Origin: an uncultured Kofleriaceae bacterium
GTDB lineage: Bacteria > Myxococcota_A > Polyangia > GCA-2747355 > CAZCFB01
Reading direction: 5' to 3'
NCBI GenBank assembly: GCA_964497805.1
Contig: CAZCFB010000013.1
Span: 4,029 to 68,028, forward strand
DNA length: 64,000 bases
Shown: piece after piece, positions 1,540 through 53,610 of the stretch
Numbering within the stretch: position 1 is the first letter of the stretch
How the letters are laid out: each line of letters begins with the position of its first letter
Program-made: the position numbers and the translations under genes
Notes under the pieces: model-generated
Seen by the model: only the letters and a program-made list of their open reading frames with translations
Database searches by the model: none
Told to the model about the DNA's origin: nothing

Positions 1540-1634
1540 AGTTGCTTGCCTCTCTTTATCAACATGCAACCTAGCATAAAACGGCCCCACCGGGACCGAC
1601 GGTCCCGGCGTGCCCGTAGCGGCCTTCGGCCGCC

Positions 1635-3137
<1,503 letters not shown>

Positions 3138-3533: not shown

Positions 3534-5105
3534 CTAGCAGCCAGTAACCACCTTCACATCGTCGATATAGACACCCTCGGTGTCATTTGCCCAGTTGTCC
3601 TTGCTGTCGAAGGTGAAGATGATGTTGACGGTCTTGCCTGCCTGGGAGGAGAGGCCTACCTCAACCTGGACCCACCGCTTGTAGTCGCCCACCGGGAGGG
3701 TAGTGTTGCTCTTGGTCCAGAGCACCTTGGTCCCCGCCGAAACAGTGAGCACGTCCACCTTGCTGGTGGTTTCTGTGTCCATGTAGAGCCAGAAACTGAT
3801 GGCCGCCTTTTTGCCCGCGGGGAAGGTGAAGGCCTTCATGGCGGTTCCGGTCGTGGTGGCGCCGGTGTCGTAGTTGCCCGCGGTCTTGCTGCCGTAATAG
3901 AGGCTCCCCTTGCCGCTCCTGGAACGGGTGGTTGACTGCTGCCAGCCCACGCCCTTGACCGCCGCCGACACCTTGAAGCTCGACAGCCCGGTGTCGAAGG
4001 TGCTCGCCTTCACAGTGGCCGCCGTGGGCGCGCTCCAGGCCAACCCGTCCTTGGCCGGGGTACATACGCCGCACGCGCTGGTGCTCTTGGCGCCGCTCAT
4101 GTAGCAGGACCCGCCGATGAAGCACCGGTTGGCGTCCGCGGTCCACGAGGTCTGGCTCTTGGACGGCACGCAGGACGCGCAGCCCGCCTTGTGCTTGTCC
4201 CCCTTGTCGTAGCAGATCCCGCCGATGAGGCACTTGTCCGGTGTCGCGGACCACCCCTTGGCGTTCTTCTTCGGGTCGCACACGCCGCAGCCGCTGGCGT
4301 CCTTGGTGTTCTTCGGGAAGCAGTAGTAGCCGATCTTGCAGATGTCCGGGGTTGGGGTCCAGGCGAACAGGCTCTTGTTGGGATCGCAGTAGCCGCAGCC
4401 GTTCTTGTCGTAAGTGGCGGTCTTGTAGCAGACCTTGTTGATCAGGCAGTAGTTGCTCTTCATCGGGTTCTTGCAGCCGCCCTTGCCGTCGCACACGTCG
4501 TCGGTGCAGCCCAGGCCGTCAGCGCACTTGTTGCCGTAATAGGTGCCTGCGCAGACGCCGTCCTTGCACACGTCGTTGACCGTGCAGAGGGTCTGATCAT
4601 CGCACTTCTTCTGCAGGTAATTGGGCGTTGAGCTCCACTGGGTCTGACTGGTCTTCGGGTCGCACGACTTGCATGGATCCTTGGGGTGCACCGACTCCTT
4701 CATGCCCGGCTTGACGCACTTTCGGACGCTGTCCCCGCCCTTTGGATCGGGCACCATCAGGGCACACCAGCCCGCCGTAATCGTGTTGTTGTCGCACATG
4801 CCGAGGCCGGTGCAGCGGTCCGTGGTGCAGTCCAGCTTGTCGCTGCAGTCCTGATACCGCTCGGGGTAACAGATGCCGTCCTTGCCGCAGATCGGATTGA
4901 TGGCGCAGGCGTTGTGGGGGCTGCACGTCTTTCCCGGGTTTTTGCACGGCCACAACTTGGCGTCGCCTTTGACGAAGCCGTCATGCGCCGGGTTGATGCC
5001 CGCGTCATGGCCTGCCTGGTTGTCGTCACCGTCGTCGGAACAGGAAAGGCTCGTGAGGATCAAGGCGAGGCACAGGATAAAGGTAGTTAAGCTCTTGCAC
5101 TGCAT
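3534..5105 (-). CDS. Cys-rich repeat lipoprotein with a C-terminal beta-sandwich domain
   Basis: Signal plus lipobox LTSLSCSDD. Many CxxC...W repeat units (e.g. CGYCDPNKSLFAWTP, CGVCDPKKNAKGWSATP, CASCVPSKSQTSWT). A C-terminal ~150 aa domain free of Cys. Codon usage is slightly lower in GC than its neighbours. Confidence 0.65.
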   Translation of the reverse strand: MQCKSLTTFILCLALILTSLSCSDDGDDNQAGHDAGINPAHDGFVKGDAKLWPCKNPGKTCSPHNACAINPICGKDGICYPERYQDCSDKLDCTTDRCTGLGMCDNNTITAGWCALMVPDPKGGDSVRKCVKPGMKESVHPKDPCKSCDPKTSQTQWSSTPNYLQKKCDDQTLCTVNDVCKDGVCAGTYYGNKCADGLGCTDDVCDGKGGCKNPMKSNYCLINKVCYKTATYDKNGCGYCDPNKSLFAWTPTPDICKIGYYCFPKNTKDASGCGVCDPKKNAKGWSATPDKCLIGGICYDKGDKHKAGCASCVPSKSQTSWTADANRCFIGGSCYMSGAKSTSACGVCTPAKDGLAWSAPTAATVKASTFDTGLSSFKVSAAVKGVGWQQSTTRSRSGKGSLYYGSKTAGNYDTGATTTGTAMKAFTFPAGKKAAISFWLYMDTETTSKVDVLTVSAGTKVLWTKSNTTLPVGDYKRWVQVEVGLSSQAGKTVNIIFTFDSKDNWANDTEGVYIDDVKVVTGC

Positions 5106-5171
5106 AGGTTCACTCCTTCAAAAAGGAGATTATCGCTCCATCCTGCCCGTGGCAACCGCGAGCCAGCGGAG

Positions 5172-5206
5172 TATAAAGAGAGAGGGTCTGACCCTCTCTC
5201 TTTATA
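5172..5206. promoter_or_regulatory. 35-bp near-perfect palindrome (17-nt arms, 1-nt centre) in a divergent intergenic region
   Basis: TATAAAGAGAGAGGGTC-t-GACCCTCTCTCTTTATA read directly. It lies between the divergent starts of the 3534-5105 (-) gene and the MBL gene (+). Confidence 0.5.
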
Positions 5207-5369
5207 CCGATCCAGGATGGTGCATCGGTCCAGGATTGTGCCCTGTTTCGGCACGGTCGCGCCTGGTCGCATCGCATAACCTGCTGGAATCAGGGCGGAC
5301 GGCCCCTGGCACCTGCCTTGCACATTCAAAAGGCAGACAGGGTTGAAGAACCTGCAAAGGAGGCCGACC

Positions 5370-6218
5370 ATGCACAACACACTACGCTTTTGGGGTGTCA
5401 GGGGGAGCATCGCCTCACCGGGCCCACACACCGCGGGAGCCGGCGGGAACACCGCCTGCGTCGAGGTGAGGCTGGGGGGAGAGCACATCATTATTGACGC
5501 CGGGACTGGCATCCGGCAGCTGGGGCTATGTAGGCAGGGAGAGGCGATGGACGCCTGGCTGCTGCTGGGCCACCTGCACTGGGATCACATCCAGGGCTTC
5601 CCCTTCCTGGGCGCGCTTTTCGATCCGAACACGCGGCTAAGGATAATCGGCCCCCAGGGGGTTCGTCTGGCCCTGGCCGCGCAGATGTCCGGGCCGTCCT
5701 TCCCGATCTCCCTGGACCAGGTCCCCGCGCGGCTGGAGTTCACCGAGGTGTCCCCCGGGCGCCGCATGCAGCTGGGGGAGGTGTCTCTCTCCACGGCCGC
5801 CCTGAACCACCCGGGGGGCGGGGTGGCCTACCGCCTGGAGCATGATCTGCGCTCCCTTGTCTACGCCTGCGACACCGAGCACCCGGAGAGGGGCCACGAT
5901 CCGGCGCTGGCGGAGCTGTCAGGAGGGGCAGGCATCTTGATCCATGACGCCCAGTACCTGCCTGATGAATATCCGGCCAGGCAGGGGTGGGGGCACAGTA
6001 CGTTCGAGGCCGCCGCCGCCCTGGCCCACGCCGCCCGGGTGCCGCGCCTGCTGTTGACCCACCACGATCCCACGCGGGACGACCTGGCCCTGGCCCGGCT
6101 GGAACGAGACGCCCGGACTCTGCACCCCGGAGTCCGCGCTGCCCGTGAGGGGGACATCCTGGAGCTGGAAGAGTGGACGGGGGACGAGATGGATGATCTT
6201 CAGGAGATGAACCGATGA
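5370..6218 (+). CDS. MBL-fold metallo-hydrolase
   Basis: N-terminus LRFWGVRGSIASPGP...GGNTACVEV plus HLHWDHIQG metal-binding motifs. The start was chosen at MHNTL inside track ORF 5343-6218. Confidence 0.7.
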   Translation: MHNTLRFWGVRGSIASPGPHTAGAGGNTACVEVRLGGEHIIIDAGTGIRQLGLCRQGEAMDAWLLLGHLHWDHIQGFPFLGALFDPNTRLRIIGPQGVRLALAAQMSGPSFPISLDQVPARLEFTEVSPGRRMQLGEVSLSTAALNHPGGGVAYRLEHDLRSLVYACDTEHPERGHDPALAELSGGAGILIHDAQYLPDEYPARQGWGHSTFEAAAALAHAARVPRLLLTHHDPTRDDLALARLERDARTLHPGVRAAREGDILELEEWTGDEMDDLQEMNR

Positions 6219-6283: not shown

Positions 6284-7753
6284 TTGTCGCCCATGCCCAA
6301 GCGTGAACCCCCAGGCGTCCTGCACTCGGTGGCGGACATGATCAACCGGCCCGTGACCAGGGAACAGCTGCTCACGGTCCTTGTGGACTCCATGGTGCAG
6401 GCGGCCGGGGCCGAGCGGGGGACCATCTACCTGGTAGACGGCCTCACCGGCGAGCTTTGCAGTCGGGCGGCCCACCTGCCGGAGATGGAAGAGATCCGGC
6501 TGCCTCCGGGCCAGGGCGTGGCGGGCCATGTGGCGGACAGCGGAGGGTCGGTGCTGATCCAGGACGTGGAGGAGGACCACCACTTCTTCCCGGGCATCGA
6601 CGAGCAGACTGGTTTCACCACGCGCAGCATGGTGGCGGCGCCGGTGCTGGATGATGATGGCGCGGTTCGGGGCGTGCTCCAGGTGCTCAACCGCCGGGAG
6701 GGCAGGTTCGGCCCTGGCGACCTGCGCCTGTTGGAGGAGATGGCCGCCCAGGTCAACGAGGCCCTGGGCCGCACCTCAATGCGCCCCTGCGGCGACCGGC
6801 AGCACGGCGTGCTGGTGGACGGCCCGTTCAACAACATCGTGGGCGAATCTCCGCTCATGGCCGAGCTTTACCGCCGCATCCAGGCCGCGGCCCGCGCAGA
6901 CGTCACGGTGCTCATCCGGGGGGAGACAGGCACCGGCAAGAGCCTCGTGGCCAGAGCCGTACACGACAACAGCGCCCGCGCCGCAGGGCCGCTGGTCCAT
7001 GTGGACTGCACCGCCCTGCCCTCAGGCCTCATAGAGAGCGAACTGTTCGGCCACGAGCGTGGTGCCTTCACTGGAGCCGAGCGCCGGGTGCGCGGCAAGT
7101 TCGAGATGGCCAACGGCGGCACGCTGCTGCTGGATGAGCTGGGCGACCTGCCCCTGGCCCTGCAGGGAAAGCTGCTCAGGTTCCTGCAGGATCGGGCCTT
7201 CGAGCGCCTGGGCGGGCGAGAAACCCTCAAGGCCGATGTGCGGGTCCTGGCTGCGACCAACGCGGATCTGGACGCCCTGGTCAAGGAGGGGAAGTTCCGC
7301 AGAGACCTTTACTACCGGGTCCGGGTGGTGGAGTTGGTGGTCCCCCCGCTGGCAAGCCGCGGCGCGGTGGACATCCAGCGCCTGGCCGAGCACTTCCTGG
7401 ATCTTTACGCCCGGCGACATCGGCGACGGATCCGCGGCATCACGGAGGAGGCCATGGCTCGGCTGCAGGCCCACTCCTGGCCGGGCAACGTGCGTGAGCT
7501 GGAGCACTGCATGGAGAGCGCAGTGGTGCTCTGCCCGGGGGATCTCATCGACGCCGGCCACCTGCCCTTGCCAGCCGGGGATCCTGATCCCGGGGCGCCT
7601 GGATCCGGCTACCCCCCCGGCACGCCGCTGCGCAGCGTGGAACTGGATCATATCCGCAGGACCGTGGACGCTTGCGGTGGAAACCGCTCAGAAGCGGCCC
7701 GTCAGCTCGGGATCGGGCGCAACACCTTGCAGCGAAAGCTAAAAGTGGATTAA
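6284..7753 (+). CDS. sigma-54-dependent transcriptional activator with an N-terminal GAF sensor domain and a C-terminal Fis-type HTH
   Basis: GAF-like N-terminus. AAA+ core [19 protein letters not shown], the GAFTGA motif (ERGAFTGA), and C-terminal [20 protein letters not shown]. Confidence 0.85.
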
Positions 7754-7845
7754 TTCTGCGCCTGGATCCGCCTCACAGCTTGTCCCATCTCCCATGATGT
7801 CGTACACTTCTGTCCGGAGCGGAATTTTAACGCCAGGAGAGATCT

Positions 7846-10200
7846 ATGCGCCTAAAGAACTATTGGCTTGTGATGGTTGTCGGCCTCTTTTTTGCCGCCG
7901 GTTGTACCGACCTTGACGGAGACTTTGACAACAACGGCAGCGACGGTGGAGGGAGCGTAAGCCCTGACCTGTTTGCCACCGTGGACGGCGGGGATGCGTG
8001 CACCGATCCGAGCGGAGACTACGACGGAGACGGCATCACCAACGCCCAGGAGGGCTGCCTCAACGGCCGGGACTCCGACCAGGATAAGATCCCTGACTGG
8101 CAGGACTTCGACTCTGACGGCGACAAGATCCCGGACAGCCTTGAGAAGGGCGTCAAGGACAAGAACGGCAAGTGCGTGGGCTCCAAGAACGGCAAGTACC
8201 CGTGCGACACCGACGGCGACGGCGTGCCCGACTACCTGGACAAGGACTCTGACGGCGACGGCATGCAGGACGGAGAGGAGGACGCCAACTACGACGGCCT
8301 GCTCGGCTGCTGCCTCAAGACCTGCAACGCTCCGGACGTCAAGTGGCAGAAATCCAACTGCAAGCTGACCACGGACGGCTGCGGCAGCGGGCAGAAGTGC
8401 GTCAACAAGTCCTGCACCCCCTCAGCGGCGTTCAAGTGCTCCGAGGGCGAAACCGCGCCTCTCAAGAAGGATACCTTCGGCGACGGCAAGCTGGATAACG
8501 AGCGCGGCACCTTCATCTGCCGCGACGCCACCGAGGACAAACCTCAGGGCCGCAAGCCCGTGCAGCTGCGCCAGGACACCAAGGGCGACTACCACATCGC
8601 CATCGAGAAGTTCGCCAAGTACGGCGCGGTGACCGTGGCCGGCGCCACCACCACCAACAAGCTGGCGGCCGGCTCCATCAACTACGACAAGACCTCCGAC
8701 GAGGTGGCCGGCTTCGTGATCTCCAAGGCCACCACCAACACCAGCGTCAGCGACGACCTCACCGCCCTCATCGCCCTGCTCAACAGCTCGGGCGTAGGCA
8801 CCATGACCGTGCGCGCCTCCGGTACCGTTAACAAGAGCCACGACAAGTACGACCAGGCTGAGGGGACCCTGGTTGACATCGCTGCCAGCTCAACCACCGA
8901 CGTGAGCTCGGCGCGTAACGCCATCATGGCCGCCCTGCTGGGCAAGAGCCTCAGCGATCTGACCAACGTCTCGTCTCCCTTCGGCTCCAGCCACAGCACC
9001 CTGCAGCTCCGCTTCACCACCGTGCGCCGCTTCGCCTTCAAGAAGGACAGCGCTGGCAAGCTGGTCCTGGACAGCAAGGGCAACCCCACCGACGATAACG
9101 ACAGCACCAAGTGGCGCACCATCGTCATGGGCGCCGTGGCCTCCAAGACCAACTACCAGAACCCGAAGCTGCAGACCGGCTTCCTGGTGGACGACCTCTC
9201 CAACGGGACCGCCCTGGCAATCGCCAAGGACACGGTGAGCAACGAGTGCGACGTCGGCACCATCACCCAGCTGCCCGTGGCGGACATCATCTGGGTCATC
9301 GACGAGTCTGGCTCCATGAGCGACGAGCGCCAGGACGTGGTGAACAACGCGAACAACTTCTTCTCCCGCGCCCTGGCCTCCGGCCTGGACTTCCGCATGG
9401 GTGTCACCAACGTGTGCACCCCCAACGGCTCCTACAAGAAGTGCCTGGGCAAGTTCTGCTCCAAGATCAGCTCCAACACCTCGGACGACGGCGGCACGGA
9501 CCGCTTCCTGCTGCCCACCGAGCAGAACATCTTCTCCTCCTGCATCAAGAACCCGCCCTGCTACGAGGGCGGCAGCGAGTACAGCCTGGTCAACGCCAGG
9601 GACGCTGTGAAGCGGCACCTGCCGCGGGCCTCCAACGATCCGCTCAAGATCCGCACCCAGGCCACCCTGGTCATCATCGTGGCCACGGATGAGATCGCCA
9701 ACAGCCTCTCCGGCGTGGGCTTCTCCTCCTCTGGTTGCCCCCTCAGCGCGGCCATCCAGACCAAGCTGGACACGGCCCTGCAGTCGTACCTGAACCTGTT
9801 CACGGGCGTCACCGACCCCGAGGGCGTGTCCATGTACCACATCATCGGCAACGTGTGCGGCGGGACGTCCACCTACGGCATCAACCACGGCCACATGACC
9901 CTGGCCAAGAAGCTGGGCGGCCAGTCGGCCTCCATCAAGCAGAAGAACCTGGGCAACACGCTGCAGGTCATCATCGACGCCATCGTCGGTAAGGCATCCC
10001 CGGTTGTGCTGGATTACGTGCCGATCTCCTCATCCCTGGCCGTGGCCATGGACGCGGTGGAGATCAAGCGCAGCCGCACCAACGGCTTCGACTACCGCAC
10101 CAACGCCAACTCCCTGGTCTTCATCAACGTGAAGTACAAGAAGGGCTCCGAGGTCATCGCCAGCTACAAGCGCTGGAAGCGTCAGGAAGATATTAAATAG
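7846..10200 (+). CDS. large lipoprotein, paralog A: thrombospondin type-3-like Ca-binding repeats, Cys-rich module, VWA domain
   Basis: Signal plus lipobox LFFAAGC. Repeated DxDxDGxxD motifs (DYDGDGITN, DFDSDGDKIPD, CDTDGDGVPDYLDKDSDGDGMQDGEED). Cys-rich CCLKTCNAPDVKWQKSNCK. VWA MIDAS motif VIDESGSMSDE. Confidence 0.8.
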   Translation: MRLKNYWLVMVVGLFFAAGCTDLDGDFDNNGSDGGGSVSPDLFATVDGGDACTDPSGDYDGDGITNAQEGCLNGRDSDQDKIPDWQDFDSDGDKIPDSLEKGVKDKNGKCVGSKNGKYPCDTDGDGVPDYLDKDSDGDGMQDGEEDANYDGLLGCCLKTCNAPDVKWQKSNCKLTTDGCGSGQKCVNKSCTPSAAFKCSEGETAPLKKDTFGDGKLDNERGTFICRDATEDKPQGRKPVQLRQDTKGDYHIAIEKFAKYGAVTVAGATTTNKLAAGSINYDKTSDEVAGFVISKATTNTSVSDDLTALIALLNSSGVGTMTVRASGTVNKSHDKYDQAEGTLVDIAASSTTDVSSARNAIMAALLGKSLSDLTNVSSPFGSSHSTLQLRFTTVRRFAFKKDSAGKLVLDSKGNPTDDNDSTKWRTIVMGAVASKTNYQNPKLQTGFLVDDLSNGTALAIAKDTVSNECDVGTITQLPVADIIWVIDESGSMSDERQDVVNNANNFFSRALASGLDFRMGVTNVCTPNGSYKKCLGKFCSKISSNTSDDGGTDRFLLPTEQNIFSSCIKNPPCYEGGSEYSLVNARDAVKRHLPRASNDPLKIRTQATLVIIVATDEIANSLSGVGFSSSGCPLSAAIQTKLDTALQSYLNLFTGVTDPEGVSMYHIIGNVCGGTSTYGINHGHMTLAKKLGGQSASIKQKNLGNTLQVIIDAIVGKASPVVLDYVPISSSLAVAMDAVEIKRSRTNGFDYRTNANSLVFINVKYKKGSEVIASYKRWKRQEDIK

Positions 10201-10224
10201 AAGGACCGGGCCCACGGCCCGTCC

Positions 10225-10315
10225 CTTCTATTTGCGGGCCTTGGCCCGCTCCGTTCATCGCCTGGCTTCGCTAGGCTAGGGCCCGCCAGCGCTTCCGCGT
10301 GGCGGGCGGAAAAAC
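10225..10315 (+). repeat. conserved multi-hairpin 3' element, copy 1: terminator-like hairpin plus three further GC-rich hairpins
   Basis: GCGGGCC-tt-GGCCCGC, GCCTGGC-ttc-GCTAGGC and GCCCGCCA-n11-TGGCGGGC read directly. About 85% identical to copy 2 at 12836-12925. Confidence 0.5.
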
Positions 10316-10452
10316 CGCTCTCCCTCCACCATTAAAATCCTTTGCCTGACCAAGGCTATTGATCTTTTTGCAGCCAGGTCATGAAATAAGAGCGTATAGA
10401 GGCTGTGGAATTTGTATATTCACGCCCTCGTTTATCTATCTGGAGGATCCTG

Positions 10453-12810
10453 ATGCGGACAACGACCTTATTACTCTCCTGCGCGAGCCTGGTGCTGGCC
10501 CTCTCCTGCACAAACATTGACGACGGCGATAGCAACCCGGCCGGTTCCGATAGTGGCACCACGCCTGACATCCTCGCCGTGGGTGACTGGGGCAGCTCCA
10601 TCTGCTCGGACCCGAAGGGGGACTACGACGGCGACGGCATCAACAACGCCATGGAAGGGTGCCTGAGCGGCCGGGACTCGGATCAGGACAAGATCCCGGA
10701 CTGGCAAGACTTCGACTCGGACGGCGACAAGCTGCCCGACTCCAAGGAGAAGGGGGTCCAGGGCTCCACAGGCAAGTGCCAGGGCGCCAAGAAGGGCAAG
10801 GACACCTGGCCCTGCGACACGGACGGCGACGGCGTTCCCGACTACCTGGACAAGGACTCCGACGGCGATGGGCTGTTCGACGGCAACGAGGACGCCAACT
10901 ATGACGGCCTGCTCGGCTGCTGCCTCAAGACCTGCAACGCGCCTGATGTCTCCTGGCAGAAGGCCAACTGCAAGCTGACCAAGGACGGGTGCGGAAACGG
11001 GCAGAAGTGCGTCAACAAGAAGTGCACCCCCGCCGCGGCCTTCAAGTGCTCCGAGGGTGAAACAAACCCAAAGCAGAAGGACACCTTCGGCGACGGCAAG
11101 CTGGACAACGAGCGCGGAACATTCATTTGCCGCGACGCCACTGAGGACAACCCCCAGGGGCGCAAGCCGGTGCAGCTCCGCAAGAACACCTCGGGTGACT
11201 GGCACATCGCCATCGAGAAGAGCGCCAAGTACGGCGCCATCACCGTGGCCGGGGCAACCACCACCAACAAGCTGGCCGCGGCCGCAGTCAACTACGACAA
11301 GACCACCGACGAGGTGGCGGGCTTCATCGTCTCCAAGTCCACCAGCAACAGCGACATCCAGAACGACCTGACCTCTCTGATCGGCCTCCTGAAGAGCTCC
11401 GGCGTGGGCACCCTGACGGTGCGCGCCTCGGGTACCCAGAACAAGAGCCACGACAAGTACGACCAGATCGAGAGCACCCTGGTGGACATCTCCGCCAGCT
11501 CAACCACAGACGTCAGCTCCGCCCGCAACCAGGTCGTGGCCGCGCTCCTGGGCAAGACCCTCGCAGATCTGACCAACGTCTCGTCCCCCTTCGGCTCCAG
11601 CCACAGCACCCTGGTGCTGCGCTTCACCACGGTGCGGCGCTTCGCTTTCAAGAAGGACTCCGCGGGCAAGCTGGTCCTGGATAGCAAGGGCAACCCCACG
11701 GATGACCTGGACAAGACCAAGTGGCGCACCATCATCATGGGCGCCGTGGCGGCCAAGACCAACTACCAGAACCCGAAGCTGCAGACCGGCTTCCTGGTGG
11801 ATGACCTGTCCAACGGGACGGCCGTGGCCATCGCCAAGGACACGGTGAGCAACGAGTGCGACGTGGGCACCATCACCCAGCTGCCCGTGGCGGACATCAT
11901 CTGGGTCATCGACGAGTCCGGATCCATGAGCGACGAGCGCCAGGACGTGGTGAACAACGCCAACAACTTCTTCTCCCGCGCCCTTTCCAGCGGCCTGGAC
12001 TTCCGCATGGGCGTAACCAACGTGTGCACCCCCAACGGCTCCTACAAGAAGTGCCTGGGCAAGTTCTGCTCCAAGATCAGCTCCAACACCTCGGACGACG
12101 GCGGCACCGACCGTTTCCTGTTGCCCAGCGAGCAGAACATCTTCTCCTCCTGCATCAAGAACCCGCCGTGCTACGAGGGCGGCAGCGAGTACAGCCTTAT
12201 CAACGCCAGGGACGCGGTGAAGAGACACCTGCCCAGGGCCACCAACGACGCCTCCAAGATCCGCAAGAACGCCACGCTGGTGATCATCGTGGCCACCGAC
12301 GAGATCGCCAACGAGCTGTCTGGCATCCTCGGCTACTCCTCCAAGCCCTGCCCCCTCACCGCGGCGGTCCAGACCCAGCTGGACACGGCCCTGCAGCCCT
12401 ACCTGAACCTGTTCACGGGGATCACTGATCCCGAGGCCGTGTCCATGTACCACATCATCGGCCATGTGTGCGGCAGCGCCACCAGCCAGGTGAACCATGG
12501 CCACATCACCCTGGCCAAGAAGCTGGGCGGCCAGGCGGCCTCCATCCAGCAGAAGAACCTGGGCAACACCCTGCAGGTCATCATTGACGCCATCGTCGGC
12601 AAGGCCTCCCCGGTGGTCCTGGACTACGTGCCGATCTCCTCCTCCCTGGCCGTGGCCATGGACGCCACCGAGATCAAGCGCAGCCGCACCAACGGCTTCG
12701 ACTACCGCACCAACGCCAACTCGCTGGTCTTCATCAACGTGAAGTACAAGAAGGGCTCTGAGGTCATCGCCAGCTACAAGCGCTGGAAGCGCCAGGAAGA
12801 TATCAAGTAA
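10453..12810 (+). CDS. large lipoprotein, paralog B of 7846-10200 (TSP3-like repeats, Cys-rich, VWA)
   Basis: Start taken at MRTTTLLLSCASLVLALSC, with GGAGGA six nt upstream. From the first TSP3 repeat onward it is near-collinear with paralog A, with scattered substitutions and an identical C-terminus (...KRWKRQEDIK). Confidence 0.8.
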   Translation: MRTTTLLLSCASLVLALSCTNIDDGDSNPAGSDSGTTPDILAVGDWGSSICSDPKGDYDGDGINNAMEGCLSGRDSDQDKIPDWQDFDSDGDKLPDSKEKGVQGSTGKCQGAKKGKDTWPCDTDGDGVPDYLDKDSDGDGLFDGNEDANYDGLLGCCLKTCNAPDVSWQKANCKLTKDGCGNGQKCVNKKCTPAAAFKCSEGETNPKQKDTFGDGKLDNERGTFICRDATEDNPQGRKPVQLRKNTSGDWHIAIEKSAKYGAITVAGATTTNKLAAAAVNYDKTTDEVAGFIVSKSTSNSDIQNDLTSLIGLLKSSGVGTLTVRASGTQNKSHDKYDQIESTLVDISASSTTDVSSARNQVVAALLGKTLADLTNVSSPFGSSHSTLVLRFTTVRRFAFKKDSAGKLVLDSKGNPTDDLDKTKWRTIIMGAVAAKTNYQNPKLQTGFLVDDLSNGTAVAIAKDTVSNECDVGTITQLPVADIIWVIDESGSMSDERQDVVNNANNFFSRALSSGLDFRMGVTNVCTPNGSYKKCLGKFCSKISSNTSDDGGTDRFLLPSEQNIFSSCIKNPPCYEGGSEYSLINARDAVKRHLPRATNDASKIRKNATLVIIVATDEIANELSGILGYSSKPCPLTAAVQTQLDTALQPYLNLFTGITDPEAVSMYHIIGHVCGSATSQVNHGHITLAKKLGGQAASIQQKNLGNTLQVIIDAIVGKASPVVLDYVPISSSLAVAMDATEIKRSRTNGFDYRTNANSLVFINVKYKKGSEVIASYKRWKRQEDIK

Positions 12811-12835
12811 CAAACGACGGGCTGAAGCCCATCGT

Positions 12836-12925
12836 TTATTACTTGCGGGCCTTTGGCCCGCTCCTTTCATCGCCTGGCTGCGCCAGGCTAGGGCCCACCG
12901 GCACTTCCGCGCGGTGGGCGGTCCA
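12836..12925 (+). repeat. conserved multi-hairpin 3' element, copy 2
   Basis: GCGGGCC-ttt-GGCCCGC, GCCTGGC-tgc-GCCAGGC and GCCCACCG-n11-CGGTGGGC. The last stem differs from copy 1 by two compensatory base-pair changes. Confidence 0.5.
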
Positions 12926-13000
12926 GGCGGACCACTCCTCTTCTTCTCTTACCTCTTGGGAGCTTTTCGCGTGTATCCCTGTTGCGGGGGAGGGTCGCTG

Positions 13001-13294
13001 CTACTTGCCGGCAGGTTGTGCCTGGCGTGCGGAGCAGGCCTTGAGCAGCTTGGTGTTGTCCTCGCGCAGAGTGTCCAGTTCCTTGCGCAGGCCAAACAGC
13101 TCACTGCGGATCTGACCGGTCTGGCTGGTAAGCCGGATTGTCAACTCGTCCAGGCGGACATCGTTGCTCTTACCCACCAGCCAGAGGCCGCCGCCGAGGG
13201 TAACCACCAGTAGAATAATGACCAGATAGAGGTAGACATTGAAGCTACTACCTCTCTGTTCCTTCTTGAGAACCGCCATCAGCCGCTCCTGCAA
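13001..13294 (-). CDS. small single-pass membrane protein with a coiled-coil tail
   Basis: One hydrophobic helix (FNVYLYLVIILLVVTLGGGLWLV) followed by a heptad-like charged segment. No homology is recognisable. Confidence 0.35.
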   Translation of the reverse strand: MQERLMAVLKKEQRGSSFNVYLYLVIILLVVTLGGGLWLVGKSNDVRLDELTIRLTSQTGQIRSELFGLRKELDTLREDNTKLLKACSARQAQPAGK

Positions 13295-32363: not shown

Positions 32364-32414
32364 TCACCCGCCCCCCCCGCGCTCCCCGGGTCCGTGCTAT
32401 ATGCTCGTACCTTC

Positions 32415-33956
32415 ATGAGGGTCTTGCTCGTCCAGCCGCCGCGGCCGCTCTGGCCATACATCAACGAACAGGACAACTACCTCCTGCCCCAGTGGATGGT
32501 CTGCCTGGGCGCTGTTTTGCGGGACGCGGGCCACGAGACGCGGTTGCTCGACTGCATGCCCGAACGCGTGGGCTGGAGGACGCTGGAGGCGCGCATCAGG
32601 GCACTTCGGCCAGACATGATCTGCGCCGGTGAGAACCACGCCCTCTTCGCCTCGAGTGTGGTGCGCCTGGTATCCCTGGCCAAGGCCATCGACCCGGCCA
32701 TGATCACGGTGGTGGGGGGCGGGCACTTCACCAACACGGTGGAGCACTACCTGCCGGCAGAGCCCATGGACTTCATCGTGCGCGGCGAGGGCGAGGCGAC
32801 CCTGCTGGAGCTGGCCGGGGCCCTGGAGTCCGGGGGCCTCGAGGAGGCCCGCACAGTGCACGGCGTCGCCTTCGCCGAGGACGGCGAGGTGCGTTACACC
32901 GCGCCCCGGGAGCTGGTGGAGGACCTGGACAGCCTGCCCATGCCGGCCTACGACCTGCTCCCCCTGCGCGCCTACGGCCGCGCCCGCTACCTGTTCAGCC
33001 CTGGCGGGGTTACCGTCCACCACAGCCGCGGCTGCACCGGGAGGTGCCAGTTCTGCGCCTGGTGGCGGCAGATGGCCCAGCGCGAGGTCACCTGCAGCGA
33101 CGGATGCCGCACCGAGCGCCTGGTGCCCCGCTGGCGCACCAAGTCCGTGGAGCGCACCCTGGCCGAGATGGAGGCGCTGCACCGCCGGTACGACAAGCGG
33201 TGCCTGGTGTTCGTGGATCCCACCTTCAACCTGGATCCTGAATGGAACGACGAGTTCGCCGAGGCGCTCATCCGGAAGCGGTGGGACCTCACCTGGTTCG
33301 CCTTCATGCGCGCCGACTTCATCCTGCGCGATGAGGGGCTGGGCATCTTCGACAAGCTCGTGCGCTCCGGGCTGGTGCACCTCTGCGTGGGCGTGGAGCG
33401 TCAGGATGACGACCAACTCGACGCCTGGGACAAGCCCGGGGCCCGGGCCGACGACTACGTCCGCTGCTTCGACCTGCTGCACGACAAGTACCCCGAGGTG
33501 TTCCGCCAGGCTACCTTCATCGTGGGCACAGCCTCGGAGACCCGGGCGTCCATGATGTCCCAGCTGCGCTACGCCCGCCGCATCCGCGCGGACTACCCCG
33601 CCTTCCACCCGGAAACCCCGTTCCCCGGCACCGACCTGTACGAGGAGGCGCGGCGCACCGGCAGGCTGGAGCTCACCGACTTCGACGACTTCGACATGAT
33701 GACCGCGGTGATGGGGACGGACCACCTGACCCGCGAGCAGGTGGAGGATGGCCTGGTCCGGCTCAACAAGGCGTACGTGGGGCCCAGGTGGTGGCTCAAG
33801 GGCATGCTCTCCAGCTCCGCGTACCGGCGAGACATGTACATATGGTGGTCCCTGGTGACCGGCCGGGTCTTCCTGGACGCGGTGAAGCGCCGGGTGAACC
33901 CCCTCTCCCCGGAGCCGTACACCAGCGCCTTCACCCCCGACTGGTACGAGGCATAG
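32415..33956 (+). CDS. cobalamin-binding (class B) radical SAM protein, paralog 1
   Basis: N-terminal Rossmann-like B12-binding domain (MRVLLVQPP...ICAGENHA). Radical SAM motif CTGRCQFC. Confidence 0.8.
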   Translation: MRVLLVQPPRPLWPYINEQDNYLLPQWMVCLGAVLRDAGHETRLLDCMPERVGWRTLEARIRALRPDMICAGENHALFASSVVRLVSLAKAIDPAMITVVGGGHFTNTVEHYLPAEPMDFIVRGEGEATLLELAGALESGGLEEARTVHGVAFAEDGEVRYTAPRELVEDLDSLPMPAYDLLPLRAYGRARYLFSPGGVTVHHSRGCTGRCQFCAWWRQMAQREVTCSDGCRTERLVPRWRTKSVERTLAEMEALHRRYDKRCLVFVDPTFNLDPEWNDEFAEALIRKRWDLTWFAFMRADFILRDEGLGIFDKLVRSGLVHLCVGVERQDDDQLDAWDKPGARADDYVRCFDLLHDKYPEVFRQATFIVGTASETRASMMSQLRYARRIRADYPAFHPETPFPGTDLYEEARRTGRLELTDFDDFDMMTAVMGTDHLTREQVEDGLVRLNKAYVGPRWWLKGMLSSSAYRRDMYIWWSLVTGRVFLDAVKRRVNPLSPEPYTSAFTPDWYEA

Positions 33957-33961
33957 CCGCC

Positions 33962-35395
33962 TTGCGCTTCCTCCTGATCAACCCCGCCCAGGATCCGCGC
34001 CTCACCGCCGGCTACTACCGGCGCATGCTCTCCATCATGCCGCCCATCAACCTGGCATACCTGGCCGCGGCGCTGGAGCAGGCCGGGGTGGAGGTGGCGG
34101 TGCACGACGACGCGGTGGCCGGCGGGGATCCAGCCGCGCTGGCGAACGCGCTCAGGCGCTTCCGTCCCGACGCCGTGGGGCTCTCCGTGGTGACCAGCAT
34201 GATGCCCGACGCGGCGCGGGTGATCCGGGGGGTGCGGCAGGCGGCGCCGGAGGCTGCCGTGGTGCTCGGCAACATCCACCCCACCCTGTATGACGGTGAC
34301 CTCCTGCGGCAGGGTCTGGCCGACGTTGTGGTGCGCGGTGAAGGGGAGCACACCGTCGTGGAGTTGTGCCACGCGCTCTCCTCGGCGGGTGGGGACATGG
34401 CGCAGGTGCCCGGCGTCTCCTTCATGCGGGAGGGCGAGGTGGTGCGCACCCCGGACAGGCCGCGCATCGAGGACCTGGACAGCCTGCCCCTGCCCGCCTG
34501 GCACCTGTTCCCCCTGGACGGCTACCGCCTGTTCAACTTCGCCCGTGTACGGGAGCCGGGCACGCTGATCCAGGGATCGCGCGGATGCCCGTACGGCTGC
34601 ACCTACTGCTCTCTCAAGATCATGGGCTCAAGGCGGCGGGTTCGCAGCGCCGGGAGCCTGGCCGACGAGTTCGAATACCTGCTGTCCCGCTTCGGCTACC
34701 GGCAGCCCTCCTTCGTTGACCCTATTTTCCCTTTCACCAAGAAGGAAGGCCTCGACTTCGCCGCCGAGGTTGTGCGCCGGGGCCTTCACCGGGAGCAGGT
34801 CTGGATCACCGAGACCCGCGCTGATCTGGTGGATCTGGAGCTACTCCAGGCCCTCCGCGAGGCGGGCCTGAGGCGCATCATGTTCGGCTTCGAGGCGGGC
34901 CAGGACGCCCAACTCCGGGCCATCAACAAGCGCGGCTCGGCCCAACAGGCGGAGCGGGCGGTTCAGCTGGCGCGCAAGGCCGGCGTCCAGGTCATCGGCT
35001 TCTTCATGCTCGGCATCCCTGGCTCGGACCGGGCGTCCCTGCAGGCCACCATTGACCACGCCCGCGGGCTGGACATCGACTTCGCCAAGTTCACTGTGTT
35101 CACACCCTTCCCCGGCACGTCGGCGCACAAGGAGCTCCTGGCGCGGGGTGATCTGCCAGAGCCCGAGAACTGGCGCCGCTACACCAGCTACCCGTCCAGG
35201 GAGGTCCCGCCCTGCTACGTACCCGAGGGGCTGTCCGCCGACGATCTCGTGAACGCCCAACGGCGCGCCTACCTCTCCTGGTACCTGCGCCCGACCGTGA
35301 TCTACAACCAGTTGGCGCGGGTGCGCGCCCTCGGGTTGGATGAGCTGCTGGCCGGCGCGGGCACAGTGCTCTCGGCCTTGAGGAGGCGGGGCTGA
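33962..35395 (+). CDS. cobalamin-binding (class B) radical SAM protein, paralog 2
   Basis: Likely TTG start giving (M)RFLLINPAQD. B12-binding N-terminal domain. Radical SAM motif CPYGCTYC. Confidence 0.75.
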   Translation: MRFLLINPAQDPRLTAGYYRRMLSIMPPINLAYLAAALEQAGVEVAVHDDAVAGGDPAALANALRRFRPDAVGLSVVTSMMPDAARVIRGVRQAAPEAAVVLGNIHPTLYDGDLLRQGLADVVVRGEGEHTVVELCHALSSAGGDMAQVPGVSFMREGEVVRTPDRPRIEDLDSLPLPAWHLFPLDGYRLFNFARVREPGTLIQGSRGCPYGCTYCSLKIMGSRRRVRSAGSLADEFEYLLSRFGYRQPSFVDPIFPFTKKEGLDFAAEVVRRGLHREQVWITETRADLVDLELLQALREAGLRRIMFGFEAGQDAQLRAINKRGSAQQAERAVQLARKAGVQVIGFFMLGIPGSDRASLQATIDHARGLDIDFAKFTVFTPFPGTSAHKELLARGDLPEPENWRRYTSYPSREVPPCYVPEGLSADDLVNAQRRAYLSWYLRPTVIYNQLARVRALGLDELLAGAGTVLSALRRRG

Positions 35396-35546
35396 TGAGC
35401 CTTAAGACCGCTGGCGGCGCGGTCGCGCCCGCCGGCCACAGCCTGGCGCAGCCGGGCGAAACAACAATGCGGGCCGAAGGCCCTCAGCTGGGCACGTCGG
35501 GCCGAAGCGCCCGTCGGGGACAGCTGATATTGAGGCGGGGCTGATG
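35378..35546. repeat. 17-20 bp direct repeat (TTGAGG(AGG)CGGGGCTGATG) flanking a 133-bp intergenic insert between rSAM paralogs 2 and 3
   Basis: Repeat 1 (35378-35397) covers the paralog-2 stop and contains an overlapping ATG. Repeat 2 (35530-35546) carries the paralog-3 ATG. Confidence 0.45.
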
Positions 35547-52528: not shown

Positions 52529-53610
52529 CAGATGCCCTGGCGGTCCAGCCAGCAGAAATCCCCCGGCTGCACCAGGCGCTCGTGCAGGCCGCCGCCCAGG
52601 CAGAGGGAGAAAAAGGAGCACCCCTTGCAGTGCCCCTCCTTGCGCCACTTCAGGTCACGGAAGGCCTTGAACTCCCGGTGCCAGATCTCGGAGAAGCGGC
52701 GCTCCAGGGCCGAGCCCTGGGCCCACTCCCGGGGCATGGAGGGGCAAGCGCTCACCTGGCCATCGCACAGGATGGAGGCCACGCAGAGCCCCGCGTAGCA
52801 CTGGCCCATCTCCGGGCGAACCGACAGCTCCCGGTCCACGCCGAGGAAGCCGCCGCAGGAGAAGCGGACGCCAGTGTCACCCTCCTTCTCCTGTTTGCGT
52901 TTGTCCTCGACGTACTGGAACAGGCGGTTGATGTGGTGCGGCTCCATCCAAAGCTCGGGATCCGGCGGACCGGAGACCCGGCCCATGCGGTCGATGGTGA
53001 TAACCCGGTAGTGGGTGGCCCCGGCGGCCCGCACAGCCTGCTCCACCTCCTCCAGGCTCTCCAGGTTGGCCGGGCGCACGCAGGTGATGGCCTCCACCAC
53101 GTTCATGCCCACCTCGCTGCAGTGGCCGATGGCGGCCAGGGCCTTGTCGTAGGTCCCCTTGCCCCGCATGGCCTCGTGCTCCTCCCTGAGCCCGTCCACG
53201 CTGATGGTGATGGTGTTCATGCCGGCCTCGGCCAGCAGGGAGGCCTGTTTGCGCCCCAGGAGCACGCCGTTGGTGACGATGCAGGCCTGCATGCCCAGGC
53301 GGTGCATGCGGTCCACCACCTGGAACAGGTCCTTTCGCATGAGCGGCTCGCCGCCGGTGATTGAGACGAAGATGCGGCACGGGTCGAAGTCCTCGGCGAT
53401 GGTGTCGAGGATGGCGAAGATCTGGTCGGTGCTCAGCTCCTCGTGCGGGGAGCGCGCCTCGCAGCTTGAGCCGCAGTGCACGCATTGGAGGTTGCACTTG
53501 AGGGTGCACTCCCAGAAGAGGTAGGTCAGTTCAGGCCTGGCGAAGAGCTTCTTGCGGCGCTCCATCTCGCGCCGGATGGCGACCAGCTTGGGAAAGTCTT
53601 TGGGTTTCAT
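52528..53610 (-). CDS. radical SAM enzyme with a C-terminal SPASM/twitch-like Cys-rich extension (anSME / peptide-maturase-like)
   Basis: CNLQCVHC (Cx3Cx2C), the GGEPLM SAM-binding motif, and C-terminal CYAGLCVASILCDGQVSAC...CKGCSFFSLC. Confidence 0.8.
   Translation of the reverse strand: MKPKDFPKLVAIRREMERRKKLFARPELTYLFWECTLKCNLQCVHCGSSCEARSPHEELSTDQIFAILDTIAEDFDPCRIFVSITGGEPLMRKDLFQVVDRMHRLGMQACIVTNGVLLGRKQASLLAEAGMNTITISVDGLREEHEAMRGKGTYDKALAAIGHCSEVGMNVVEAITCVRPANLESLEEVEQAVRAAGATHYRVITIDRMGRVSGPPDPELWMEPHHINRLFQYVEDKRKQEKEGDTGVRFSCGGFLGVDRELSVRPEMGQCYAGLCVASILCDGQVSACPSMPREWAQGSALERRFSEIWHREFKAFRDLKWRKEGHCKGCSFFSLCLGGGLHERLVQPGDFCWLDRQGI

What the first reader, a model, noticed from the sequence alone, without database searches (positions are those of the whole stretch)
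10201..10320. Duplicated multi-hairpin 3' element with compensatory stem mutations (copy 1)
Each VWA-TSP3 paralog is followed by the same ~100-nt module. First comes a terminator-like hairpin plus U-rich tract whose sequence has diverged but whose structure is kept. Then come three conserved GC hairpins. In the last hairpin the two copies differ at four positions that form two compensatory pairs (A-T to G-C, and G-C to A-T). That is direct evidence of selection for RNA or DNA secondary structure rather than mere recency of duplication. Candidate roles are a compound terminator, an mRNA-stabilising 3' UTR, a 3'-derived small RNA, or a protein-binding structured repeat.
Basis: seen in the sequence. 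Interest (0 to 1): 0.6.

Follow-up and report, generated by a model that had tools for sequence, protein, structure and literature searches.

The report
Dispersed four-hairpin repeat element
The hairpin module behind each of the two paralogous lipoprotein genes is real and its stems are kept by compensatory mutations, but it is not gene-specific: it is one copy of a small four-hairpin repeat found at four places in this 64-kb stretch of an uncultured myxobacterium-like genome.

Summary
Copy 1 (10195-10311) and copy 2 (12805-12923) each hold a terminator-like hairpin H1 and three GC hairpins, H2-H4. H4 differs by exactly the two compensatory pairs reported (chance P about 0.006). H2-H4 differ at 12% of positions, against 26-31% at four-fold sites of the paralogs.

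The interpretation needs revising. A covariance model finds two more copies in the window. One is on the minus strand between two radical-SAM genes (35398-35531). The other lies between divergent genes (about 1588-1694). Orthologous loci in related metagenome contigs carry the module too, once with H2-H4 doubled in tandem and once with H4 swapped for other hairpins.

Across seven copies 94% of stem cells pair and 12 pairs show double changes. All eight pairs of the H4 outer stem covary.

The minus-strand copy is a true insertion. A relative has the two genes overlapping (TGATG). The window has 149 extra bases, and removing them restores collinearity. They are the element plus a 15-nt duplication of the junction.

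The element has no terminal inverted repeats and no GTAG/CGTC tags, no transposase lies nearby, and no Rfam family matches. It is best read as a new interspersed structured repeat, duplicated along with the gene and probably serving there as terminator or 3' stabiliser.

The parts
7846..10200 (+). Paralog 1: a 784-aa predicted secreted lipoprotein with acidic DxDxDG-type repeats. Pfam gives only sub-threshold TSP3 similarity.
   Evidence: ORF list, translation, Pfam, and more than 400 homologues in Myxococcota-like MAGs.
10195..10311 (+). Element copy c1, the finding itself. H1 is 10195-10233 (a two-tier hairpin that includes the stop codon, followed by CTTCTATTT). H2 is 10234-10249, the T-rich spacer is 10250-10259, H3 is 10260-10276 and H4 is 10281-10307.
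   Evidence: Sequence, fold (z = -4.3), and covariance-model match of 91.5 bits at E about 1e-18.
10453..12810 (+). Paralog 2: 785 aa from the ATG at 10453. The ORF is open from the GTG at 10405.
   Evidence: It is 84% identical to paralog 1 in protein and 31% different at four-fold degenerate sites.
12805..12923 (+). Element copy c2. H1 is 12805-12844, H2 is 12845-12861, H3 is 12872-12888 and H4 is 12893-12919. A copy-specific small hairpin (GGTCC-AGGC-GGACC) lies just outside, at 12920-12933.
   Evidence: z = -6.6. Covariance-model match of 93 bits.
35398..35531 (-). Element copy c3: 134 nt inserted between two B12-binding radical-SAM genes that are on the + strand, so the element is antisense to them. 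In + coordinates, H4 is 35410-35436, H3 is 35441-35457, H2 is about 35469-35485 and the H1-equivalent hairpin X is 35484-35527.
   Evidence: Covariance-model match of 92 bits at E about 7e-19, sequence, folds, and the empty site in L103.
35383..35397 (+). Left copy of the duplicated 15-nt target GAGGCGGGGCTGATG. It contains the stop codon of the upstream radical-SAM gene.
35532..35546 (+). Right copy of the duplicated 15-nt target. It contains the ribosome-binding site and the ATG of the downstream radical-SAM gene.
1588..1694 (+). Element copy c4, which is more diverged. Hairpin X is 1590-1608, the linker is CGTGCCCGTA, H2 is 1619-1633, the spacer is CATGTTTTTTC, H3 is 1645-1661 (degenerate) and H4 is 1666-1686 (it lacks the apical CGC/GCG tier). 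It lies between a minus-strand lipoprotein gene that starts near 1549 and a Ser/Thr kinase gene whose likely start is the GTG at 1703. A possible 7-nt flanking repeat, ACGGCCC, sits at 1581 and 1695.
   Evidence: Covariance-model match of 41 bits (E about 1e-7) with a model that did not include it and 66.8 bits with model R2, which was built from A6 including c4, so that match is by construction. Sequence and fold.

Best explanation
**What it is**
- The module is one copy of a small dispersed family of structured intergenic repeats, roughly 107-134 nt long.
- The units come in a fixed order and orientation: a two-tier hairpin (H1/X), a linker, H2, a conserved T-rich spacer (consensus CTCYGTTGTWTC), H3 and H4.
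- H3 is an almost invariant palindrome, GCCTGGC-NNN-GCCAGGC.
- H4 has a free-to-vary 8-bp outer stem, a bulged G, a conserved CGC/GCG tier and an NNCC tetraloop.

**Shown**
- There are four copies in 64 kb, in three unrelated contexts.
- The stems are kept by compensatory change.
- One copy (c3) is an insertion with a 15-nt target duplication.
- The copy behind the lipoprotein gene is present at the same site in related lineages.

**Inferred**
- The element settled behind the ancestral lipoprotein gene.
- It was then copied together with the gene by the tandem duplication. Paralog homology stops exactly at the 3' end of H4.
- There its first hairpin, with its A-tract, GC stem and TTATTT tract, works as the gene's intrinsic terminator. 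The three GC hairpins behind it act as a back-up terminator and a barrier to 3'-5' exonucleases. This is the role known for REP/BIME elements.
- The sequence-conserved parts are most likely the contact surface for a trans-acting protein that once mobilised the element or now binds it. These parts are H3, the spacer and the H4 apex.
- The covarying stems only need to fold.
For: **Family membership**
- Model R1 was built from H2-H4 of six copies. With filters off it finds exactly four matches in the window: 93, 92, 91.5 and 41.3 bits. The next best score is 22.7 bits.
- Model R2 gives the same four.

**Orthologous copies**
- L080 4895-4981 and 5004-5090 hold a tandem doubling of H2-H4.
- L095 and L096 have H1-H2-H3 followed by different hairpins.

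**Covariation**
- 94% of cells pair, against 29-45% in the slid controls.
- 10 to 12 pairs carry double changes, and 0 of 500 shuffles reach the observed values.
- The H4 outer stems read GCCCGCCA, GCCCACCG, GCCGGCGG and GTCGAGAG, each with a matching 3' arm.

**Insertion**
- In L103 the two radical-SAM orthologues overlap as TGATG with no spacer.
- Deleting window 35398-35546 gives a gapless alignment to L103.
- The flanking 15-mers are identical.

**Constraint**
- H2-H4 diverge by 12%, against 26-31% at four-fold sites.

**H1/X homology**
- c2 H1 and c3 X share CGACGGGC.
- c1, c3 and L095 share GGCCCG in the 3' arm.

**Terminator-like form**
- In all four gene-3' copies H1 is AAATAR-stem-loop-stem followed by TTATTT, CTATTT or TTACTT.

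**Hint of RNA-level constraint**
- Mismatches are G.U on the transcribed strand in four cases (c1, c3 twice, c4). One case is A.C (c2).
- c3 folds into the canonical hairpins as the + strand transcript (z = -2.05) but less well in the element-sense strand (z = -0.98).
Against: - Only 64 kb of this genome is available, so the true copy number is unknown.
- About 78 kb of contigs from the same or related samples, searched with filters off, and about 848 kb of other related loci, held no further copies outside the syntenic site.
- An exact-pattern scan of the JGI metagenome collection found only chance hits inside coding sequence. It did not even recover the source contig, so that collection does not cover this organism.
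- Mobility rests on a single filled-versus-empty site comparison.
- No enzyme that could move the element was seen among the 50 window ORFs scanned against Pfam.
- The terminator and stabiliser roles are inferred from form only. The simple terminator scan flagged H1 only on the minus strand.
- The G.U tally of 4 to 1 is not significant.
- Gene conversion between the paralogs could account for part of the low c1/c2 divergence.
Confidence: 0.6

Rival explanations
1. Gene-specific 3' UTR element or 3'-derived small RNA of the lipoprotein paralogs. The hairpins would exist to regulate or stabilise these two mRNAs, or to release a stable regulatory fragment.
For: - The module sits directly after the stop codon of both paralogs and of their orthologues in L080 and L095.
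- The structure is conserved.
- Three-stem-loop small RNAs such as Pxr are known in myxobacteria (PMC5684412).
Against: - Equally good copies lie antisense between two radical-SAM genes and in a divergent promoter region.
- Other paralogs of the same gene family lack it entirely, in L082, L090, L091, L092 and L097-L102.
- In L095 the copy behind gene 1 has decayed to an H1/H2 fusion, and H4 behind gene 2 has been replaced.
- No Rfam family matches.
Confidence: 0.08
2. A REP/REPIN family moved by a RAYT (an IS200/IS605-type tyrosine transposase). The hairpins would be single-stranded-DNA recognition structures.
For: - The units are short GC-rich extragenic palindromes with compensatory changes, lying between or downstream of genes.
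- Related genomes carry GTAG-tagged hairpin doublets at the same kind of site: L082 7358-7410 and L095 7471-7540.
- REPs are defined this way in PMC3733652.
Against: - No GTAG or CGTC tag sits next to H2, H3 or H4 in any consistent way.
- The hairpins are three or four different units in one orientation, not inverted doublets.
- The c3 insertion has a 15-nt target duplication, which IS200/IS605-type transposition does not make (established knowledge of the family).
- No Y1 transposase was found among the window genes. This is a weak test, because RAYTs are single-copy.
Confidence: 0.12
3. A classical MITE: a deletion derivative of a DDE insertion sequence, moved in trans and making a target-site duplication.
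For: - It is small and non-coding, and present in several copies.
- There is a filled-versus-empty site with a direct duplication.
- c4 has a possible 7-nt flanking repeat.
Against: - It has no terminal inverted repeats. The best end-to-end inverted alignment of the c3 insert scores 8, against 6.4 +/- 1.4 for shuffles, and 99 of 500 shuffles do at least as well.
- A 15-nt duplication is long for most insertion-sequence families, from my own knowledge of those families.
- The copies share internal hairpins rather than ends.
- No insertion sequence was seen nearby.
Confidence: 0.15
4. Independent, convergent terminator hairpins. The similarity between copies would reflect only GC-rich terminators evolving behind genes.
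For: H1 does look like a fast-evolving intrinsic terminator whose sequence is not conserved.
Against: - H2, the spacer, H3 and the H4 apex are conserved in sequence, order and spacing across loci. Covariance-model matches reach 92 bits (E about 1e-18) at an unrelated locus.
- Copy c3 lies inside an operon in antisense orientation.
Confidence: 0.02

Closest known systems
REP elements and BIMEs (bacterial interspersed mosaic elements) of Enterobacteria and Pseudomonas
   Same: - They are short GC-rich extragenic palindromes arranged as mosaics with conserved linkers.
- They are found after stop codons and between genes of operons.
- Their stems are kept by compensatory change.
- The number of units varies: L080 has H2-H4 twice, and L095 has H4 swapped.
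- Their known host-level roles, transcript 3' stabilisation and termination or attenuation, fit the position of c1 and c2.
   Different: - There is no GTAG or CGTC tag.
- The units are three or four different hairpins, all in one orientation, rather than alternating inverted copies of one palindrome.
- The one dated insertion carries a 15-nt target duplication.
- Copy number appears low, and no RAYT was seen.
BOX elements of Streptococcus pneumoniae (boxA-boxB(n)-boxC modular repeats)
   Same: - It is a modular structured repeat of about 100-200 nt with fixed module order.
- The internal module can be repeated in tandem.
- It is intergenic and has no coding capacity.

This comparison rests on my own knowledge of the family and was not tested here.
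   Different: - The sequences are unrelated.
- BOX ends (boxA and boxC) pair with each other, which the ends of this element do not.
- The host phylum is different.
Bacterial MITEs such as Correia/NEMIS, ERIC and RUP
   Same: It is small and non-autonomous, lies between genes, has a filled-versus-empty site with a direct target duplication, and can end up inside operons.
   Different: It has no terminal inverted repeats, a much longer duplication (15 nt), and side-by-side hairpins instead of one long end-to-end stem.
Intrinsic (Rho-independent) terminators
   Same: Behind both paralogs and their orthologues, H1 is a GC-cored stem with an upstream A-tract and a downstream T-rich tract. H2 is likewise followed by a T-rich spacer.
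   Different: The T tracts are interrupted. The same unit occurs where termination would be harmful (c3, in reverse orientation) or has no evident purpose (c4).
Pxr small RNA of Myxococcus (three stem-loops, next to a sigma-54 activator gene)
   Same: It has three consecutive stem-loops with two conserved and one variable, in a myxobacterial setting, with a sigma-54 activator gene nearby (PMC5684412).
   Different: - It lies downstream of a 2.3-kb coding gene rather than behind a sigma-54 promoter.
- It is dispersed in several copies, one of them antisense.
- No Rfam family matched.

Membership tests
REP / REPIN (RAYT-associated) | Short (20-40 bp) imperfect palindromes able to form a stem-loop | tested here: met
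   H2 is 16-17 nt, H3 is 17 nt and H4 is 27 nt. All are predicted in the minimum-free-energy folds.
REP / REPIN (RAYT-associated) | An unpaired GTAG or CGTC tag at one end of the palindrome (PMC3733652) | tested here: not met
   The bases before H2 (TTT, CTT, GCT, GTA), H3 (ATC, TTC, TAC) and H4 (TAGG, TGTG, TGCG) show no consistent tag. Only c4 has GTAG before H2.
REP / REPIN (RAYT-associated) | Two copies of the same palindrome in inverted orientation (the REPIN doublet) | tested here: not met
   The hairpins are different sequences, and they come in the same order and orientation in all seven copies.
REP / REPIN (RAYT-associated) | High copy number (tens to hundreds per genome) | not testable with these tools
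   Only 64 kb of the genome is held. It has four copies. None were found in 78 kb of contigs from related or the same samples.
REP / REPIN (RAYT-associated) | A cognate RAYT (Y1 transposase) gene in the genome | tested here: inconclusive
   No Y1_Tnp or any other transposase domain was found among the 50 window ORFs scanned against Pfam. A single-copy gene could lie anywhere else in the genome.
REP / REPIN (RAYT-associated) | Insertion without target-site duplication (IS200/IS605 chemistry) | tested here: not met
   c3 is flanked by an exact 15-nt duplication of the target.
BIME-type mosaic | Combinations of palindromic units joined by conserved linker motifs, with variable unit number | tested here: met
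   The spacer CTCYGTTGTWTC and the linkers are conserved. L080 has H2-H4 twice, and L095 has H4 replaced.
BIME-type mosaic | Palindromic units in alternating orientation | tested here: not met
   All units are in one orientation.
MITE | Terminal inverted repeats | tested here: not met
   The best inverted alignment of the ends of the c3 insert is no better than shuffles, and 99 of 500 shuffles do at least as well.
MITE | Target-site duplication and an empty site in a relative | tested here: met
   The 15-nt duplication lies at 35383-35397 and 35532-35546. L103 has the uninterrupted TGATG junction, and splicing out 149 nt restores collinearity.
MITE | A related autonomous insertion sequence with the same ends | not testable with these tools
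   No insertion sequence lies in the window, and the rest of the genome is not available.
Intrinsic terminator | A GC-rich stem-loop immediately followed by a U-rich tract on the transcribed strand | tested here: inconclusive
   H1 is followed by CTTCTATTT or TTATTACTT, and by TTATTT in L080 and L095. The consensus scan reported it only on the minus strand. No transcript data are available.
Integron attC site | R''/R' core sites (RYYYAAC ... GTTRRRY) flanking an imperfect palindrome, with an integron integrase nearby | tested here: not met
   No such core sites appear in the aligned copies. No integrase domain was found among the window genes. The genes involved are syntenic chromosomal genes.
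Any Rfam family | A covariance-model match at the curated threshold | tested here: not met
   There were no matches in the whole window at gathering score. Only weak, unrelated sub-threshold hits appeared at E up to 10.

The most novel reading that the evidence does not exclude
The element may represent an undescribed class of non-autonomous mobile DNA in uncultured Myxococcota. It would lack terminal inverted repeats, be built of four side-by-side hairpins, and integrate with a long (about 15 nt) target duplication. That would point to an unusual integrase making widely staggered cuts, or to a target-primed or gap-repair route. Such an element could insert precisely at overlapping stop/start junctions without breaking either gene, and the host could then reuse it as a terminator.
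Probability: 0.15. Interest if true: 0.6.

Novelty: new variant of a known kind. Interest (0 to 1): 0.4.

Why it matters
- Structured interspersed repeats are well studied in Enterobacteria, Pseudomonas, Neisseria and pneumococci. I found no description of one in Myxococcota in two literature searches.
- This element gives a clean small example in which three things are visible in one 64-kb window: hairpin structure under selection, a dated insertion with target duplication, and capture by a gene duplication.
- If the family is larger genome-wide, it offers a handle on an unknown mobilisation mechanism, because it has no inverted ends and makes a long duplication.
- It would also show how such elements become terminators.
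- For annotation, it warns against reading a conserved 3' hairpin array as a gene-specific regulatory RNA before checking for dispersed copies.

Tried and rejected
**Searches that found nothing useful**
- Rfam on the whole window at gathering score, and on 10100-13100 at E up to 10, gave nothing relevant.
- An exact-pattern scan of JGI metagenome contigs for the H3 core gave seven hits. All lacked the H2 and H4 context and look like chance hits in coding sequence. The source contig was not recovered, so the collection does not cover this organism and the test says little.
- A pattern scan of viral contigs gave no hits.
- Model searches of about 848 kb of homologous loci, and of 78 kb with filters off, found no copies outside the syntenic site.

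**Ideas considered and dropped**
- Transposase, RAYT, integrase or reverse transcriptase in the window: none were found among the 50 window ORFs scanned against Pfam. The region is ordinary chromosome, with EF-G, PolA, Sdh and DinB.
- Terminal inverted repeats on the c3 insert: none.
- Sigma-54 promoter reading of the conserved TTGATCTTTTTGCAGCCAGG stretch downstream of c1: the GG-to-GC spacing is wrong, by inspection.
- Pxr-like small RNA: rejected on context and the lack of any Rfam match.
- attC site: no core sites and no integrase.

**Attempts that stayed unresolved**
- Orthology of the two paralogs with the two genes of L095: identities of 0.76-0.84 do not resolve it, so the age of the duplication is unclear.
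- A target duplication for c1 and c2: nothing convincing was found. Only a 6-nt ATTAAA occurs on both sides of c1.

Full report
**1. What is at the coordinates**

The window carries two tandem genes, 7846-10200 and 10453-12810, both on the + strand. They encode 784- and 785-aa lipoprotein-like proteins that are 84% identical. Pfam gives only sub-threshold similarity: TSP3_bac E = 0.055 and VWA E = 0.13. Some database homologues are named 'VWA domain-containing protein'.

Each gene is followed by the same arrangement. RNAfold predicts four consecutive hairpins.

| Unit | Copy 1 | Copy 2 |
|---|---|---|
| H1 | 10195-10233 | 12805-12844 |
| H2 | 10234-10249 | 12845-12861 |
| H3 | 10260-10276 | 12872-12888 |
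| H4 | 10281-10307 | 12893-12919 |
| Fold z-score | -4.3 | -6.6 |

No shuffle out of 200 folds as well as either copy.

H1 spans the stop codon. It has an A-rich 5' base, a GC core and a T-rich 3' base and tail. Its sequence differs at about half of the positions between the copies, yet it still pairs.

H2-H4 differ by nine substitutions and one loop indel:
These are 10285G:10303C to A:T, and 10288A:10300T to G:C.
- One substitution turns a G.U pair in H3 into G-C.
- One substitution breaks an apical pair of H4.

**2. Is it more than chance or recency?**

- Random placement of nine substitutions yields two or more compensatory double changes in 0.6% of trials.
- The paralogs differ at 31% of four-fold degenerate sites, and at 26% in the last 80 codons.
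- H2-H4 differ at 12% of positions (binomial P = 0.0014 or less).

The observation therefore stands, and so does the claim that the structure is under selection.

**3. It is not specific to the paralogs**

The syntenic locus has a GAF/sigma-54 activator gene upstream. Downstream lie a small minus-strand gene, then DUF547 and DUF4340 genes. I recovered it from related metagenome contigs.

- **L080.** This contig has one gene followed by H1-H2-H3-H4 and then a second H2-H3-H4 in tandem.
  - Its H2 is GCGCGCC/GGCGCGC.
  - Its H4 is GTCGAGAG-G-CGC-TGCC-GCG-CTCTCGAC. The architecture is the same as in the window (8 bp, a bulged G, a CGC/GCG tier and an NNCC loop), but six of the eight outer pairs differ.
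- **L095 and L096.** These contigs have two genes.
  - The first gene is followed only by an H1/H2 fusion remnant.
  - The second is followed by H1, H2 (GCAGGCC/GGCCTGC) and H3, and then by different hairpins in place of H4.
- **Other paralogs of the gene family**, at other loci, lack the module. These are L082, L090-L092 and L097-L102.

I built a covariance model from H2-H4 of six copies and ran it over the window with filters off.

| Copy | Position | Strand | Score |
|---|---|---|---|
| c2 | 12842-12927 | + | 93 bits |
| c3 | 35402-35488 | - | 92 bits |
| c1 | 10231-10315 | + | 91.5 bits |
| c4 | 1615-1694 | + | 41.3 bits (E about 1e-7) |

- c4 was found by a model that did not contain it. 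The next best score was 22.7 bits.
- A second model that includes c4 returns the same four and nothing else.
- c3 and c4 also have an upstream two-tier hairpin (X) plus a shared linker, CGTGCCCR.
- The 5' arm of X in c3 (CGACGGGC) equals that of H1 in c2. The 3' arm motif GGCCCG recurs in c1, c3 and L095. H1 is therefore part of the repeat unit.

**4. Covariation**

| Alignment | Cells forming standard pairs | Slid controls | Pairs with change on both sides | Shuffles reaching the observed values |
|---|---|---|---|---|
| MAFFT, six copies | 94.4% | 29-45% | 10 | 0 of 500 |
| Model-fitted, seven copies | 94.0% | 30-45% | 12 | 0 of 500 |

- All eight outer pairs of H4 covary.
- H3 is almost invariant in sequence, as are the spacer (CTCYGTTGTWTC) and the H4 apex.
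- The pattern is free stems plus fixed sequence patches. That is what one expects of a folded element with a sequence-specific partner.

**5. One copy is a dated insertion**

- c3 lies between two of four tandem B12-binding radical-SAM genes, antisense to them.
- It is flanked by an exact 15-nt direct repeat, GAGGCGGGGCTGATG, at 35383-35397 and 35532-35546.
  - The left copy holds the stop codon of the upstream gene.
  - The right copy holds the ribosome-binding site and the ATG of the downstream gene.
- In a relative with the same four-gene array (L103, downstream gene 63% identical), the two genes overlap as TGATG with no spacer.
- Removing window 35398-35546 (149 nt) gives a gapless alignment across the junction.
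- The models find nothing in L103-L105.
- The simplest reading is insertion of a 134-nt element with duplication of 15 nt of target.
- The insert has no terminal inverted repeats.
- c4 may be flanked by a 7-nt repeat, ACGGCCC, but I could not obtain an empty site for it.

**6. RNA or DNA?**

The evidence is thin.
- Non-Watson-Crick stem positions are G.U on the transcribed strand four times (c1 H3, c3 H3 and H4 read on the + strand, c4 H3). They are A.C once (c2 H4).
- c3 folds into the canonical hairpins as the + strand RNA (z = -2.05) but not as cleanly on the element-sense strand (z = -0.98).
- This leans towards a transcript-level constraint but is not significant.

**7. Most likely history and mechanism**

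*Shown*
- It is a dispersed four-hairpin repeat family.
- Selection maintains the pairing.
- There was one insertion with target duplication.
- The copy at the lipoprotein locus is shared across lineages.
- Paralog homology ends exactly at the 3' end of H4.

*Inferred*
- The element landed behind the ancestral gene and was duplicated with it.
- In that position H1 plus its T tract, and possibly H2 plus the T-rich spacer, act as the terminator. H3 and H4 act as a 3' exonuclease block, as REP/BIME elements do in Enterobacteria (from established knowledge of that family).
- The consensus terminator scan was not decisive.
- In c3 the element sits in the orientation that puts no T tract after any hairpin on the transcribed strand. 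That is compatible with tolerance inside an operon.

**8. Comparison with known families**

- **REP/BIME** is closest in behaviour. The element fails three REP/REPIN criteria: no GTAG or CGTC tag, no inverted doublets, and a target duplication is present (PMC3733652).
- **MITE**: the target duplication and the empty site are met, but the terminal inverted repeats are not.
- **BOX-like modularity**: this is a resemblance recalled from my own knowledge, not a test.
- **Rfam**: no match.
- **Mobilising enzyme**: no mobile-element enzyme is encoded in the window.
- **Other repeats in the clade**: relatives carry separate GTAG-tagged hairpin doublets at comparable sites, so true REPIN-like repeats also exist there.

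**9. Limits**

- Only 64 kb of this organism is available.
- The metagenome pattern scan did not cover the source contig.
- Copy number, orientation bias, the mobilising enzyme and any transcript 3' ends remain open.

**10. Verdict**

- The element is a previously uncatalogued variant of bacterial interspersed structured repeats.
- Interest is moderate. The main open point is how an element without inverted ends integrates with a 15-nt duplication.

Noticed in passing
window 35395-35544 (+): The c3 insertion creates a 49-codon open frame. It starts at the ATG of the left duplicated TGATG and ends at the TGA of the right one, which overlaps the ATG of the next radical-SAM gene. Stop/start coupling could therefore be relayed across the insert. 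By my rough estimate the chance of this frame and openness arising by accident is about 0.1.
   Followed up: partly
L082:7358-7410 and L095:7471-7540 (also L096:4339-4406): GTAG-tagged GC hairpins lie behind paralogous genes in related genomes: GTAGGGGCGGTCCTTGYGGCCGCCC and GGGAGGGGGCAAGCCCCTCCCCTAC. In L082 they form an inverted doublet with GTAG at both outer ends, which looks REPIN-like. In L095 they sit inside a longer inverted repeat (CCTTAATGCCG ... CGGCATTAAGG) that replaces H4. None were found in the window.
   Followed up: partly
L097:7385-7570, L098 (same region), L010:880-1010: Behind another paralog there are two to three tandem copies of a roughly 60-nt unit: GGGCTCGCTWCGCTCGCCC followed by GGCTTCA/GGCTTCT heptads and GGGTAGATGGTTGG. 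The copy number differs between contigs.
   Followed up: no
L093:7355-7385 and L094:2600-2643: Two contigs carrying the syntenic orthologue end 30 and 43 nt after its stop codon, which suggests an assembly break at a repeat. The visible stretch has the spacer-like GCTTCATCGC followed by a variant hairpin, GCCTCCC-GCA-GGGAGGC. Relative to H3 (GCCTGGC/GCCAGGC) this changes pairs on both sides.
   Followed up: no
window 5171-5207: A perfect 17-bp AT-rich hairpin (GTATAAAGAGAGAGGGT-CTG-ACCCTCTCTCTTTATAC) lies in the divergent intergenic region between the minus-strand gene 3534-5105 and the Lactamase_B_2 gene at 5343-6218. It is the longest perfect hairpin in the window.
   Followed up: no
window 32394-38410 and 52528-53610: Four tandem B12-binding radical-SAM paralogs are syntenic with L103. 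A separate radical-SAM/SPASM gene lies further on. Together they may form a peptide- or lipid-modification cluster.
   Followed up: no
window 1635 versus 1703: The longest ORF of the Ser/Thr kinase gene starts at an ATG inside element copy c4. The conserved kinase N-terminus (VIIAQQVGRYFLLDRIAVGGMAEIYR) begins at the GTG at 1703, so the real start is probably there. The minus-strand neighbour begins near 1549 with a lipoprotein signal peptide (…LAVAVAGGC).
   Followed up: partly
window 7595-7607 and 7758-7770: An exact 13-nt direct repeat, GCGCCTGGATCCG, occurs once inside the 3' end of the sigma-54 activator gene and once just downstream of its stop codon, ahead of paralog 1.
   Followed up: no
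window 10355-10375 and L095:4950-4975: A stretch between copy 1 and the start of paralog 2 (TTGATCTTTTTGCAGCCAGG) is conserved in L095 (TTGATCTTTTTCCAGCCAGA). It may be a promoter or 5' UTR element of the second gene. It does not fit sigma-54 spacing.
   Followed up: partly
L095:4863-4900: Behind the first gene of L095 the module is reduced to CCAAAGACAAGCCTTCGGCCTGCCCTGTTGTT. This looks like the 5' arm of H1 joined to the 3' part of H2 plus the spacer. It resembles the start of the second tandem unit in L080 (5004-5035).
   Followed up: partly
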